Assembly (NCBI GenBank): GCA_964016885.1
Contig: OZ024742.1
Coordinates: forward strand, 54,932,001 to 54,996,000
Direction: 5' to 3'
Length of the DNA stretch: 64,000 bases
DNA from: Eledone cirrhosa
Taxonomy: Eukaryota
Part shown: in pieces, positions 1,620 to 61,438 of the stretch
How positions within the stretch are numbered: the stretch's first letter is position 1
Layout: each line of letters opens with the position of its first letter
Notes under the pieces: generated by a model
Seen by the model: only the letters and a program-made list of their open reading frames with translations
Databases searched by the model: none
Told to the model about the DNA's origin: nothing
Position numbers and translations under genes: made by a program

Positions 1620-1947
1620 ACATTCAATTTGTTGGTAATTCAACAAAATATAAATGTTTATAACTGATTCAGAGCATTCGACAAGTTTTCTGAAGTATAA
1701 TATTCAATGATATTAAATAAATGGAAACTATATTTATAAAACCCTATTTATTCTGTTATATATATTTCAAGGGCTTTCCTTGAAAACTTGAACCGTTAAG
1801 GTATTTTTCTTGGTTATTTCAAAATTTATAAAACACACTTCGTATTTTATCTGATGAAAGCGTACCAAAATGTTGGTACCTTTGAAATATATATAATAGA
1901 ATAAATATGGTTTTATAAATATAGTTTCCATTTATTTAATATCATTG
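1620..1947. mobile_element. Inverted pair of family A pseudo-LTR fragments
   Basis: 1622-1773 is a diverged reverse complement of 837-985, truncated inside HHR stem II. 1780-1947 is a plus-strand copy. Confidence 0.75.
1843..1903 (+). ncRNA. Type I minimal hammerhead ribozyme (family A)
   Basis: TATTTTAT/ATAGAATA stem I; CTGATGA 1851-1857; stem II GTACCAA-aatg-TTGGTAC; GAAA 1884-1887; ATATATAT stem III; AUA site at 1895. Confidence 0.8.
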
Positions 1948-2289
1948 TATATATACATATATATATATTTACATATATATATCCACATATATTTCCATCC
2001 ATCTATCAGTTCATTGCTTCATCATTCATAGCCACATATCTATCCATATACACGCATATATATATATACACATATTCATATATACGCAAACCCACACATT
2101 ATATATAGATGTGTGTGTGTATGTGCGCGCGTGCGTGCGTGCGTGTGGGGGTGGGGGTATGTATTTAGGTGCATGTGTGTATGTGTTTTGGTGGGTATGT
2201 GTAGCAAAAAGTAGTCAATATCCATCTAATTTCACCTGATATATAGCTGTAGTCAATATCTTTATATCTAAACCTTTAATAACATAAAA

Positions 2290-2482
2290 TATAACTGTTT
2301 CTACTTTTCGCACAAGGCCAGCAATTACCCAGTGCACTACTGGTACTTTATTTTATCGACCCCGTAAGGATGAAAGGCAAAGTTAACCTCGGCGGGATTT
2401 GAACACAGAATGGCAAGGGCCGTAACTCTATGCGTCAAAGCATGGCGTCCGACCTTCTACCGACACTGCCAATCCACCGCCT
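2290..2482 (-). mobile_element. tRNA-derived SINE (family S1)
   Basis: Reverse complement shows A box TGGCAGTGTCGG, B box GTTCAAATCC and body GCCTTTCATCCTTACGGGGTCGATAAAATAAAGTACCAG. Same family at 9050-10430 and 11808-11985. Confidence 0.85.
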
Positions 2483-3789
2483 TTAATGACATAAAATATA
2501 ACGATGGTGAGTATTGTTACGGGAGCATCAAGAATTGTTACTTAATTTATCCATCATTTAGATAATTAGAAGTTAGCTAGTTCTTCCTGGAGAAATGAAG
2601 TTTCAATTTCTCAATTTCGTATTTCTTAATTTCACAATTATATCCTTTGAATGACGCTTTTAGATCCTTTGTTTAAATTTGTAAAATTCATTACAACAAT
2701 TTTTTACGTCTCATTCATACTTGATTACTTGTGGAAAACTTAATGTAAAAGATTGCGATTTCCTATTTTGGTCTTCGTAATATCATCATGATGAAAGCTT
2801 CAGATCTATTTTTATTGGGTGGTGGCATATTTATGCTTGTTCGAATGCGCACATGGTTAACTGTTTCAGGATAGTCTTTCATTGTCCCTCACTAACTGAG
2901 AGGCCGAAAATCAAACTGTGGGTGTGTATGGTATATAGCGCGTGTTCAACACATCTTAATACGCATTCATAGTTTAAATTGCCTCGTTGAAAGAAAGTGA
3001 TCATCAGGATGAATTAAGTTATCTTTACCACATATTGGTTATTTTCTATTTTAAATTATTTATTGTCACACATATTCCGTAGACAGTGTATGATCCTCCA
3101 GCGGGAGTTAATAATAAATGACGAAATAAACCTCGAAAGGATTTGAACCTTGAAAAGAAACAGATGTTACATATTGATTAACTGAGCCACACACAATCAT
3201 ATACTGTGGATTTCTGGTGTGATATAATGGAAATAAGGTTACAGTTATTATAATTTCAGTGTGAAACCATGACACCTTTCATTCAAATTCGTATTTGTAA
3301 TGATTTAACATTTATAAAAGAAAGATACCCCAAGAAAATAACTTAAGTTTAGATCTAGGCATGAGTATTGAAAGAAGAAGTAGAATACAGGAAATACAGC
3401 TTTGTACAAATAGTCATTGTATATAAGGCATCACCAAAAATGAAATATTTAGTTGTCATATTTTGCCATTCCTATTGAAATAGAATTTACTAGTATATTG
3501 TGAGTTAATTGAATATGTGATATCAAATAATGCACACTTCAACACTGTTAAAATAGCTCATCTAATCTTTGCAAACTTCAAAACAATATCATGAAAACAA
3601 AAACATGAAAGAAATAAACAATATGTAAGAGAAATATTGATAAAGACATTTTTTGTTCTATAGAAGACTTTTAATATGACTCTGGTCAAATTATAGAAAC
3701 ATAGAAATTACGTTTAATAATATAAATGTGAGTGGGTTTCGAGATCTCTATCATCATATTTTAATAATGTTTATATTCAAATAATGTGT

Positions 3790-4960
3790 TTGCAGATGTA
3801 ACGCAAAATATTAAATAACTTGAAAACATATTCCTTTAAATCCGAGGTAAAAGACAAATTATGTATCAGTAAAATATGTCACCGATTGTTGTTCTTCGTA
3901 AGAAGAGTACTGGAGCGTGAAAGTTGTTGGTCGATGCAAGCTCATGTATTTCAAGTAGCACCAGTAGATATTTCAAGAAACATCTCTATATACGAGGTTT
4001 GGAACGGGCGGTGTCCCAACACCTGACTAACCTAAGGAGCTTCGGTATCACTTTTGCCAGTGGTTGCAACACCTACAGATTTAATACACCACCTGCTGAG
4101 CTATCGACTCCTGAATTCAGAGACGAGGTACAGCAAGTACCACTCAGAAACACAATTGTGTTTACCAAGTATATCGGTTCGACAAATGCTTTATATGTTT
4201 GCACAATTACATTGGAATCTGGAGATGTTTCACAAAATGTGACAATGTTAAATGGTTTTTCATGTTAAGAATGAATGGAAACATTGAATTAGAGAGCTAT
4301 GGAAGATGTTATGTAATTCTTATTATCGTGAAAATGTCCCACAAATTTTTTTTACAATAGCTAAATGAGAAACATATTAGGATTTCAGAAGCCCAAGAAT
4401 ATATGATGCACTTTACCGGTGACGCACGAAATATTAGACTTAGACATTGAAAGAGAACCGTTTAGCCTTACCCATAAAAATCATTATTTTATAGATATGG
4501 AAAATAAACTTTTCCTTGTGACAATTGAAAATAAATCAGCAGAGATTACTGCGAAGCACCTAATTTACTCTTCAAATTTACAGGGAAGAAAAAGGAAGAG
4601 ATATGTTTTTAAGTGCAAACCAAATTCCCTCTGGCCTGAGAGATATTGATGTCACTAAATCAAATAAAGTGGGAATGTGGTTGCCAAGGAATATATTTAT
4701 ATTCAGTTATTTAGTGACACAAACTTTCAATATACAAACCAATTGATATACAAGGAAATTACTGCATGTAAGAAGAGAAAATTGGTGAACTTTAAACACA
4801 GCTGGAAGACAGGCGCTAGAACGAGAACGCACTGAAGTAATTTGAAGCAATATGCCTTGTCATACATGTTAGTTGTAGCAGATTACTTGTTTAATCCCTT
4901 TACAAAAAATGTTCCTGTTTAATTAAAAATCTTCAAAGAAAGTTTTTATATAAGAAGCAA
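3790..4960 (+). pseudogene. Possible decayed coding sequence of unknown identity
   Basis: Non-repetitive block with protein-like ORF pieces (3924-4268, 4419-4649) broken by stops and frameshifts, preceded by TTTGCAG. No family recognised. Confidence 0.25.
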
Positions 4961-59418: not shown

Positions 59419-59804
59419 TAGTGTATATATATATATATATATATATAGATAGATATAGTATATATATATATATATATAGTGTATATATATATATATATAT
59501 ATAGTGTATATATATATATATATATATATAGTGTATATATATATATATATATATATATAGTGTGTATATATATATATATATATATATATATATATATATA
59601 TATATATATAGTGTATATATATATATATATATAGTGTATATATATATATATATATATAGTGTATATATATATATATGTATATATATATATGTATATATAT
59701 ATATATATGTATATATATATATGTATATATATATATATATATATATATATATATGTATATATATATATGTATATATATATATATATATATATATATATAT
59801 ATAT

Positions 59805-61210
59805 ATTGGAATAAATGCTCTGAAATAGCGATATATATGTGAATATAGACATAGAATATTCGAAAATATTCTGTATGTTTATAATAAACATTTTGAAGAC
59901 CTAATCGCTATAGAATAGAATACGTCACGTATTACAATTAGATTCTCGATAAAAGCAAGGGAAGTAATCTACGCGTTTCATTCTCGTTAGAAATCATCAG
60001 GACTACATATCCAGTGCTTTTATCGAGAATGACACAGCTAGAGACTTATAGAATACTTAGCTGTGTACAGGAACTGGTTTGAAAGAGCGGTTGCCGGTCC
60101 GGCAGAAATTAGAAATTGGAATAAATGCTCTGAAATAGCGATATATATGTGAATATAGACATAGAATATTCGAAAATATTCTGTATGTTTATAATAAACA
60201 TTTTGAAGACCTAATCGCTATAGAATAGAATACGTCACGTATTACAATTAGATTCTCGATAAAAGCAAGGGAAGTAATCTACGCGTTTCATTCTCGTTAG
60301 AAATCATCAGGACTACATATCCAGTGCTTTTATCGAGAATGACACAGCTAGAGACTTATAGAATACTTAGCTGTGTACAGGAACTGGTTTGAAAGAGCGG
60401 TTGCCGGTCCGGCAGAAATTAGAAATTGGAATAAATGCTCTGAAATAGCGATATATATGTGAATATAGACATAGAATATTCGAAAATATTCTGTATGTTT
60501 ATAATAAACATTTTGAAGACCTAATCGCTATAGAATAGAATACGTCACGTATTACAATTAGATTTTCGAATATTCTATGTCTATATTCACATATATATCG
60601 CTATTTCAGAGCATTTATTCCAATTTCTAATTTCTGCCGGACCGGCAACCGCTCTTTCAAACCAGTTCCTGTACACAGCTAAGTATTCTATAAGTCTCTA
60701 GCTGTGTCATTCTCGATAAAAGCACTGGATATGTAGTCCTGATGATTTCTAACGAGAATGAAACGCGTAGATTACTTCCCTTGCTTTTATCGAGAATCTA
60801 ATTGTAATACGTGACGTATTCTATTCTATAGCGATTAGGTCTTCAAAATGTTTATTATAAACATACAGAATATTTTCGAATATTCTATGTCTATATTCAC
60901 ATATATATCGCTATTTCAGAGCATTTATTCCAATTTCTAATTTCTGCCGGACCGGCAACCGCTCTTTCAAACCAGTTCCTGTACACAGCTAAGTATTCTA
61001 TAAGTCTCTAGCTGTGTCATTCTCGATAAAAGCACTGGATATGTAGTCCTGATGATTTCTAACGAGAATGAAACGCGTAGATTACTTCCCTTGCTTTTAT
61101 CGAGAATCTAATTGTAATACGTGACGTATTCTATTCTATAGCGATTAGGTCTTCAAAATGTTTATTATAAACATACAGAATATTTTCGAATATTCTATGT
61201 CTATATTCAT
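59805..61210. repeat. Retrozyme-like array, family L, 310-nt units, inverted at ~60564
   Basis: Intact HHRs at 59964-60006 (-), 60274-60316 (-), 60733-60775 (+) and 61043-61085 (+): GTAGTC-CTGATGA-tTTCT-aacg-AGAAt-GAAA-CGCG-TA-GATTAC. Confidence 0.9.
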
Positions 61211-61274
61211 ATATATATATATATATATATATATATATATATATATATAGCGTATATATATATATATATATATA

Positions 61275-61438
61275 TACGTACGTTATTCAGGGTTGAATCG
61301 GAGGTAACCACAGTAAGTAAGGTACTCAATACATTGCAGAGTATAAAAGTTTTAATATAGATGAGATTCTACAGGACTAGAACTGTTTCATTCTTTAGAA
61401 TGAAACAGTTCTAGTCCTGTAGAATCTCATCTATATTA
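61275..61438. mobile_element. Pseudo-LTR fragment folded back at a probable HHR stem II (half HHR, family M)
   Basis: Perfect palindrome 61353-61438 centred on CATTCT-tt-AGAATG, followed by GAAACAGTTCTAG-TC. Shares GTACTCAATAC with 42943. Confidence 0.55.

What the first reader, a model, noticed from the sequence alone, without database searches (positions are those of the whole stretch)
1620..61438. HHR-bearing inserts repeatedly form divergent (<- ->) pairs with both 3' ends in TA
Seen: minus-then-plus arrangement at 1620-1947, 20101-20720, 21040-24240, 42886-43074, 48724-49080, 52972-53260, 53968-55538, 59805-61210 and 61275-61438, and probably 1-990. I found no directly joined convergent pair. 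Arms are unequal and often diverged. Known: PLEs often have inverted pseudo-LTRs at truncated 5' ends. Inference: both ends of a break in (TA)n prime reverse transcription and the two cDNAs join centrally by microhomology. The non-coding arrays show the same signature, which argues that PLE machinery mobilises them.
Basis: partly seen in the sequence, partly recalled or inferred. Interest (0 to 1): 0.8.

Follow-up and report, generated by a model that had tools for sequence, protein, structure and literature searches.

The report
Two-ended copying by Penelope retrotransposons
Ribozyme-carrying jumping elements in this animal genome sit back-to-back inside TA repeats, and in 150 of 152 such pairs examined exactly one arm carries an extra short 'tail', which likely means that both ends of a DNA cut copy the same RNA from two fixed start points and are then joined in the middle.

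Summary
Confirmed, with corrected ends. The inserts are Hydra-like Penelope elements (PLEs) and non-coding hammerhead arrays (retrozymes). Genome-wide, head-to-head pairs outnumber tail-to-tail 193:8 and 9,733:556 in two families; all 8 checked have TA between them.

New rule: in 150 of 152 two-armed inserts (five families) one arm ends with the PLE 'tail' (35-100 nt) and the other without it.

Arms share private variants. Often neither arm contains the other (16/50, 7/19). Private errors are rarely mirrored (1/17) and are T>C-biased in both arms. Central joints average 2.2 nt of microhomology (0.76 expected).

Best reading (0.7): twin priming at two fixed start sites on one RNA, then microhomology joining. 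The published self-priming model does not fit these loci.

Head-to-head structure, the one-sided tail, two RT start sites and L1 twin priming are each published; their link was not found in seven searches. The scan noted head-to-head PLE pairs in TA in another genome (e1-7882047). Raw-read confirmation could not be obtained.

The parts
1609..1952 (.). H1 (Hydra-like PLE pLTR family) pair: minus arm 1609-1774 with ~88-nt tail; plus arm ~1785-1952 without tail, HHR core at 1851
386..996 (+). Plus arm of an H1 insert (3' UTR, pLTR, HHR at 803, tail to 996). Minus arm (EN C-terminus 339-220) leaves the window and joins a 472-like array
13010..13315 (.).
20097..20806 (.). Pair: minus arm without tail; plus arm with ~86-nt tail (20721-20806); degenerate HHR core in both arms
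21036..24238 (.). H2 autonomous Hydra-like PLE: minus arm 21036-21410 (HHR, no tail); plus arm 21409-24238 (truncated RT thumb + GIY-YIG EN + 3' UTR) ending at an internal AU run next to where the first arm stops; 2-nt overlap
42886..43074 (.). Pair: minus arm with 78-nt tail; plus arm without; joint at 43019 inside the predicted HHR stem II
43836..46451 (+). Single-armed Hydra-like ORF fragment + 3' UTR + H1 pLTR with HHR at 46349, no tail; links H1 to a coding element
48638..49080 (.). H1 pair: minus arm with 85-nt tail; plus arm without; centre 48901
50431..50808 (.).
52884..53260 (.). Pair: minus arm 52884-53072 with ~90-nt tail; plus arm without; short templated filler at the joint
53969..55538 (.). 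472-nt retrozyme arrays: minus array without tail; plus array with 62-nt tail; 3-nt overlap at 54825-54827
55566..56812 (-). H2 tail-less minus arm, joined head-to-head without TA to a plus-strand APE+RT LINE fragment (56809-59424)
59805..61209 (.). 310-nt retrozyme arrays: minus array 59805-60564 with 35-nt tail (unit position 195); plus array 60562-61209 without (position 160); 3-nt overlap; HHR cores at 60000, 60310, 60739, 61049
61277..61438 (.). pLTR of autonomous family H3: minus arm with ~78-nt tail; plus arm without; joined through the 4-nt stem II match

Best explanation
These are insertions of Hydra-like Penelope elements and of HHR retrozymes into (TA)n, likely made by twin priming: the PLE protein would cut both strands, and each free DNA end would prime reverse transcription on the same RNA, one at the start site downstream of the tail and one at the site upstream of it. 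The two cDNAs have the same polarity, grow toward each other in the target and would be joined by 1-5 nt of microhomology, sometimes with templated filler. The result is a head-to-head insert with a tail on one arm only. SHOWN: geometry, TA flanks, one-tail rule, shared variants, non-nested arms, microhomology, error spectrum. INFERRED: double-strand cut, one RNA molecule rather than siblings, strand displacement by the trailing RT, a circular monomer as retrozyme template, the joining pathway (polymerase theta-like; recalled knowledge), and mobilisation of retrozymes in trans. Perfect palindromic centres would arise when both cDNAs stop at the same place (RNA 5' end or a hairpin such as HHR stem II) and pair through it.
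For: One tail + one no-tail in 150 of 152 two-armed inserts: 310 family 53/53, H1 49/50, H2 19/19, H3 14/14, 472 family 15/16; none had two tail-less ends. Same template: 10 of 50 loci carry a variant fixed in all units of both arms and none in one arm only; 6/6 subfamily loci share the haplotype; H1 partner distance 1.5 vs 12.7 (33/33 closer than the median other arm). Not a copy of the other arm: tail-less arm reaches further 5' in 16/50 H1 and 7/19 H2, and holds the ORF in L270 and L271; 1 of 17 informative private changes mirrored. RT-like errors in both arms: T>C vs A>G 8:1 and 9:0. Microhomology mean 2.2 vs 0.76; 27/42 have >=2 nt vs 18% expected. 21036-24238 shows collision geometry. 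In vitro a PLE cuts and extends both strands, starts at two sites flanking the tail and is predicted to be a dimer (PMC11167929).
Against: L232 has one mirrored private change. L057 has a variant in 7/7 units of one arm but 2/6 of the other. Two direct joins between different families (L120 tail+none, L091 tail+tail) show that two RNAs can be used. 24 of 50 H1 pairs have arms within 25 nt of equal length, where fold-back cannot be excluded one by one. Adding the nine loci weakens the bias to T>C 20: A>G 4. PMC11167929 saw no difference in start site between top and bottom strands. Single-armed inserts are not rare (4 of 57 complete 310-family arrays examined). The tail hairpin shared by six families is weak or absent in the two retrozyme arrays. 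No empty site or raw read was seen.
Confidence: 0.7

Rival explanations
1. Two RNAs, one per protomer (or per round), usually siblings from one active source; the order of events sets which start site each end uses.
For: Two cross-family head-to-head joins, L057, the H2 arm joined to a LINE at 56810. Shared variants would also arise if one source dominates in a cell.
Against: H1 arms match their partner far better than a very diverse family background. The 306G subfamily (440 units, about a tenth) is shared by both arms in 6/6 two-armed loci. One of the two cross-family joins breaks the rule (tail+tail). The collision at 21036-24238 needs one RNA.
Confidence: 0.15
2. Self-priming or fold-back: one arm is a copy of the other through a hairpin (proposed for PLEs on an antisense template in PMC3846280).
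For: Palindromic centres at 13260, 43019, 61395 and in many H1 pairs; one mirrored change.
Against: Neither arm contains the other in 16/50 H1 and 7/19 H2. 5/47 310-family pairs have lengths that neither direction of copying allows. Arm lengths are uncorrelated (rho 0.10). 16/17 changes are unmirrored, and T>C bias appears in both arms. It may still make a minority of the symmetric pairs.
Confidence: 0.07
3. A free head-to-head DNA intermediate is trimmed by the endonuclease at staggered sites in its own pLTR and then integrated (PMC8557442 ascribes the tail to EN-mediated resolution).
For: It would also give one tail per insert. PLE EN cuts AT-rich sites at its own ORF-pLTR junction (PMC11167929).
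Against: The tail equals the interval between two RT start sites in vitro. Ends scatter over AT dinucleotides (157-169, 193-202) as micro-annealed primers would. It gives no account of the 21036-24238 collision.
Confidence: 0.05
4. Post-insertion DNA fold-back at TA tracts, or a sequencing/assembly artefact.
For: Mirror duplications centred on TA do exist (28499-29037; about 4 of the 8 convergent loci). No raw-read check was possible.
Against: Those events mirror the flanks and give like ends. In the window pairs read the flanking TA satellite keeps one polarity across the insert, arms are unequal, and the tail rule holds in five families of different ages.
Confidence: 0.03

Closest known systems
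PLE inverted pLTR and 'tail' (PMC3846280, PMC8557442)
   Same: Head-to-head inverted 5'-truncated copy is the commonest form; the tail is 'optionally' on one inverted pLTR or 'often only at one end'; (TA)n targeting by Hydra and Naiad.
   Different: Here the tail is near-obligate on exactly one arm (150/152), 35-100 nt long rather than 30-40; the data contradict self-priming for non-nested pairs.
Poseidon PAc in vitro (PMC11167929)
   Same: Two adjacent internal RT start sites bounding the tail; both strands cut and extended; AT-rich cuts; predicted dimer.
   Different: In the parts read, that paper does not tie the two sites to the two DNA ends or to inverted inserts, and reports no strand difference; different clade.
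L1 twin priming (described in PMC11702581; original paper not held)
   Same: Second RT from the reciprocal DNA end on the same RNA; head-to-head geometry; microhomology. 21036-24238 is this classic form.
   Different: In L1 the second primer lands at a variable internal site next to the first cDNA's end and the arms scarcely overlap. Here both sites are fixed and 35-100 nt apart, and both arms copy the same sequence, up to kilobases.
Metazoan non-LTR retrozymes (PMC7229834; bioRxiv 10.64898/2026.07.22.740005)
   Same: Non-coding tandem units of a few hundred nt with type I HHR; circular template and PLE mobilisation proposed.
   Different: In word searches of those texts orientation and inversion of arrays are not treated. 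Here arrays are mostly bidirectional and carry the PLE tail rule.

Membership tests
Hydra-clade PLE (H1-linked ORF, H2, H3) | Single ORF with RT and C-terminal GIY-YIG EN | tested here: met
   YRDD RT motif and C-terminal EN in L212 and L272. Pfam GIY-YIG E=2e-4 for 22328-22822 and 0.019 for L272, both under the cutoff; RVT_1 did not hit either full ORF.
Hydra-clade PLE (H1-linked ORF, H2, H3) | CxCX5C linker, DKT motif, no CCHH | tested here: met
   CNCRVSINC / CNCLNKEAC and ADKT / SDKT; no CxxC inside the GIY-YIG core (definition). For H1 only a fragment was seen and its linker was not confirmed.
Hydra-clade PLE (H1-linked ORF, H2, H3) | RWK N-terminal motif | tested here: inconclusive
   RWR in L271/L272; WRA in L228.
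Hydra-clade PLE (H1-linked ORF, H2, H3) | HHR in pLTR and (TA)n target | tested here: met
   Core motifs and TA flanks.
Hydra-clade PLE (H1-linked ORF, H2, H3) | Generally short (<3 kb; a tendency in PMC8557442, not a strict criterion) | tested here: not met
   H2 unit 4,671 nt; H3 about 6 kb. Hence filed as Hydra-like.
Hydra-clade PLE (H1-linked ORF, H2, H3) | Placement in the RT phylogeny | not tested
   No reference PLE set was fetched.
Non-LTR retrozyme (310 and 472 families) | Non-coding tandem units with a type I HHR in each unit | tested here: met
   CUGAUGA...GAAA core in each unit; predicted stems I and II for the 310 unit; no non-repetitive ORF of 100 aa or more in the 310 array. Rfam gives no HHR hit.
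Non-LTR retrozyme (310 and 472 families) | Self-cleavage and circular RNA in vivo | not testable with these tools
   No RNA holder listed. Variants fixed across whole arrays fit a monomer template but do not prove a circle.
L1-type twin priming | Both DNA ends extended on one RNA; microhomology at the inversion joint | tested here: inconclusive
   Genomic predictions met; single-molecule origin not provable from an assembly.
L1-type twin priming | [quoted passage not shown] | tested here: not met
   Seen at 21036-24238 and roughly at 50431-50808; in the 152 tallied pairs both arms start at the fixed sites. Works like twin priming but is not the L1 form.

The most novel reading that the evidence does not exclude
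Paired priming is the normal PLE integration mechanism, not an accident. A PLE dimer holds one RNA by the tail structure and assigns the two cut DNA ends to the two start sites on either side of it. Two RTs then chase each other along the RNA (round a circle for retrozymes) and the host joins the cDNAs. This single mechanism would explain the inverted pLTR, the one-sided tail, partial tandems and bidirectional retrozyme arrays across PLE clades.
Probability: 0.45. Interest if true: 0.8.

Novelty: new variant of a known kind. Interest (0 to 1): 0.62.

Why it matters
How PLEs make their tandem/inverted structures is called undefined in PMC8557442, and the explanation found in print (self-priming, PMC3846280) does not fit these loci. 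The one-tail-per-pair rule ties the two in-vitro RT start sites to the two DNA ends, and can be tested in the existing purified system. It also gives a mechanistic fingerprint, rather than co-occurrence or phylogeny, that retrozyme arrays are written by PLE enzymes. At least 9,733 such palindromic inserts of one family sit in this genome, which bears on repeat annotation and on double-stranded RNA sources.

Tried and rejected
A DNA search of the genome with the 310 unit found nothing because common words are skipped; patterns were used instead. Rfam found only low-score TA-driven miRNA hits and no HHR. Raw reads: no RNA holder listed. The two raw Hi-C runs gave 0 reads in 1,938 Mb each, which is no test. 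Six contig sets held only the unit, with no inverted junction, so junctions were neither confirmed nor refuted. One search was unusable (low-complexity hits) and was redone. Automatic tail calls were wrong for L167 and L178 and L158, and were corrected by reading. A first consensus fold failed and was redone; the stems are conserved, but within-family covariation is too low to prove them. RNA editing as the source of 306A>G was dropped: it is a heritable subfamily linked to 15G>A in most loci. No stop at the HHR cleavage site: 100 arm starts are spread evenly over the unit (p=0.21). Target-site duplications could not be read in TA. The 556 convergent H1 hits were not analysed beyond the first 50 listed. 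No partner protein for the 310 family was found beyond a 26/28-nt HHR match to H3. PMC311219 and doi 10.1080/10635150601077683 are not held and may already discuss these points. No supplements were read. No structure or complex job was run.
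Full report
OBSERVATION. The window lies at G000:C3:54932001-54996000 in a 3.0-Gb genome and is rich in (TA)n. Self-BLAST and reading confirm the nine minus-then-plus pairs and add 13010-13315 and 50431-50808. Orientation comes from HHR cores, ORFs and intact family copies. Rfam does not score these minimal HHRs. The 1-990 insert is divergent, but its left arm joins another array outside the window.

WHAT THE ELEMENTS ARE. 21036-24238 and 55566-56812 belong to an autonomous family, H2 (unit 4,671 nt). 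61277-61438 is the pLTR of another, H3, with a 758-aa open frame in L272. The pLTR family H1 is attached to a related ORF at 43836-46451. H2 and H3 have DKT, YRDD, CxCx5C and no CCHH, as defined for Hydra in PMC8557442 section 11. They are longer than 3 kb and no tree was built, so they are filed as Hydra-like. 59805-61209 (310 nt) and 53969-55538 (472 nt) are non-coding HHR arrays, i.e. non-LTR retrozymes. The 310 HHR matches H3's at 26 of 28 nt.

GENOME-WIDE ORIENTATION. 310 family: 4,257 motif hits; of the first 10 arrays listed, 9 were divergent, 1 single and 0 convergent. With gaps of 20-330 nt there are 193 divergent vs 8 convergent (a different 16-mer); all 8 have TA between the arms, and about 4 look like mirror duplications. 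H1: 9,733 vs 556. 472 family: 14 vs 0 within 1 kb among the first 100 of 11,603 hits. H2: 20 vs 1 within 6 kb among the first 100 of 2,442 hits. Between different families, 18 of 18 tail-to-tail neighbours have TA between them, and the 2 head-to-head ones are joined directly.

THE ONE-TAIL RULE. 310-family 3' ends fall at unit positions 156-169 or 193-202. Of 51 loci first examined, one was single-armed and three incomplete; 47 of 47 have one end of each class. Six of nine further loci were two-armed and all six agree. H1: 49 of the first 50 loci, one with two tails (after correcting two automatic calls). H2: 19 of 19 complete (one incomplete). H3: 14 of 14, namely 8 from the first 30 hits and 6 from long loci chosen by spacing; L257, with a damaged tail, was set aside, and 13 of the 22 first-hit loci showed no second arm within 600 nt. 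472 family: 15 of 16, L110 unclear; 14 of these were chosen as divergent. Total 150 of 152, none with two tail-less ends; independent choice would give about half. Either arm can be the long, ORF-bearing one.

ONE TEMPLATE. In 10 of 50 310-family loci a variant is fixed in every unit of both arms, and none is fixed in one arm only (one search lists nine because its filter cut L086). L057 is mixed (2/6 vs 7/7). The 306G subfamily has 440 units, and both arms share the haplotype in 6 of 6 two-armed loci. In H1, partner arms differ by 1.5 vs 12.7 for the median other arm (33 of 50 loci usable). Whole-array fixation fits a monomer template, likely a circle, as proposed in PMC4209133 and PMC7229834; it is not proof.

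BOTH ARMS MADE ON RNA. If one arm copied the other, it would be contained in it and would mirror its errors. The tail-less arm reaches further 5' than the tailed arm in 16 of 50 H1 pairs (24 within 25 nt, 9 the reverse, 1 unclear) and 7 of 19 H2 pairs. Five of 47 310-family pairs have lengths that neither direction of copying allows, and arm lengths are uncorrelated. Of informative private changes, 0 of 15 and 1 of 2 are mirrored. The 56 private changes in 167 kb are strand-biased in RNA sense: T>C 17 vs A>G 1 (p=5e-4), 8:1 in tailed and 9:0 in tail-less arms; added, 20:4. Reading this as G opposite rU misincorporation is recalled knowledge.

THE JOINT. In 42 joints without added bases the overlap averages 2.2 nt vs 0.76 expected; 8 of 50 have 2-9 added bases, and four loci carry 17-29-nt templated pieces. 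At 61395 the overlap is the 4-nt stem II match. In H3, 13 of 54 distinct arm starts lie 4-7 nt before the core, about 30 nt after a TATA box, which suggests run-off at an RNA 5' end (inferred). Such shared stops would explain palindromic centres without self-priming. A predicted RCUC/GAGY bulged hairpin follows the tail-less site in H1, H2, H3 and, less cleanly, three other window families, but is weak in the 310 and 472 tails.

COMPARISON WITH PRINT. Read: PMC11167929, parts 1-2 of 4; PMC8557442, passages and section 11; passages only of PMC3846280, PMC4209133, PMC7229834 and PMC11702581; bioRxiv 10.64898/2026.07.22.740005, part 1 of 5 and passages. They report head-to-head PLE structure, an optional one-sided tail, opposite-strand HHR pairs, two RT start sites with both strands extended, and L1 twin priming. 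Searches listed no paper whose listing or read passages link these or state the rule; subscription papers, two requested classics and all supplements were not seen. An earlier scan note saw head-to-head PLE pairs in TA in another genome.

VERDICT. The feature is real. The structure is known; the pairing rule and the evidence for paired priming appear new. Twin priming on one RNA 0.70; two sibling RNAs 0.15; fold-back 0.07; DNA intermediate 0.05; artefact 0.03. Raw-read confirmation remains open. New variant of a known kind; interest 0.62.

Noticed in passing
window 59805-61210 / 60739-61048: The 310-nt unit is held in 20 public runs from 17 studies under 18 organism codes. The six laid are 99%+ alike: four as a closed 340-nt loop, one partial, one (X20) as a single unit in non-TA flanks. 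Raw reads filed under the same organism code as the best holder had none. Related species, contamination and horizontal spread were not told apart.
   Followed up: partly
window 55566-59424: A tail-less H2 arm is joined head-to-head, without TA, to a 5'-truncated APE+RT LINE whose 3' end lies in TA. The same LINE 3' end abuts TA in L119 and L179. Possibly two different retroelement RNAs used at one break.
   Followed up: partly
L120:3323-3404; L091:1530-1879: Direct head-to-head joins between different HHR families (tail+none; tail+tail).
   Followed up: partly
window 27960-29045: A 485-nt-period HHR repeat (core at 28121, minus). 28499-29037 is a 95% mirror centred in a TA tract whose AGTG/CACT interruptions switch polarity: a DNA-level fold-back or assembly event, unlike the pairs studied.
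   Followed up: partly
window 28944-43840: About 15 kb of polar (TA)n-GTG satellite with a ~5.1-kb tandem duplication (28944-33570 vs 34008-38743), repeated 106-nt inserts, an HHR insert at 33218-33570 (copies at 38391 and 41906) and a 200-N gap at 41706-41905.
   Followed up: no
window 17994-19209: Minus-strand RT + GIY-YIG ORF with a CxxC inside the EN core (a different PLE type from the Hydra-like ones); its 5'-truncated end abuts TA directly.
   Followed up: no
window 61594-64000, continuing in L180: 615-nt tandem array, about 99.9% identical units, starting at TA and running at least 7 kb beyond the window; no HHR core found in the window part.
   Followed up: no
window 15490-15826, 51682-51847, 53460-53930: Further TA-flanked inserts with inverted segments and no HHR core found; 53460-53930 holds a reading frame that looks like a LINE C-terminus.
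   Followed up: no
window 9051-10462, 2289-2479, 11808-11989: A ~190-nt repeat, dispersed and in a degenerate tandem cluster, not in TA.
   Followed up: no
L273 minus-strand ORF from 2841: 258-aa helicase-like frame (Walker A-like motif; PIF1/Helitron resemblance recalled) between H3 pairs.
   Followed up: no
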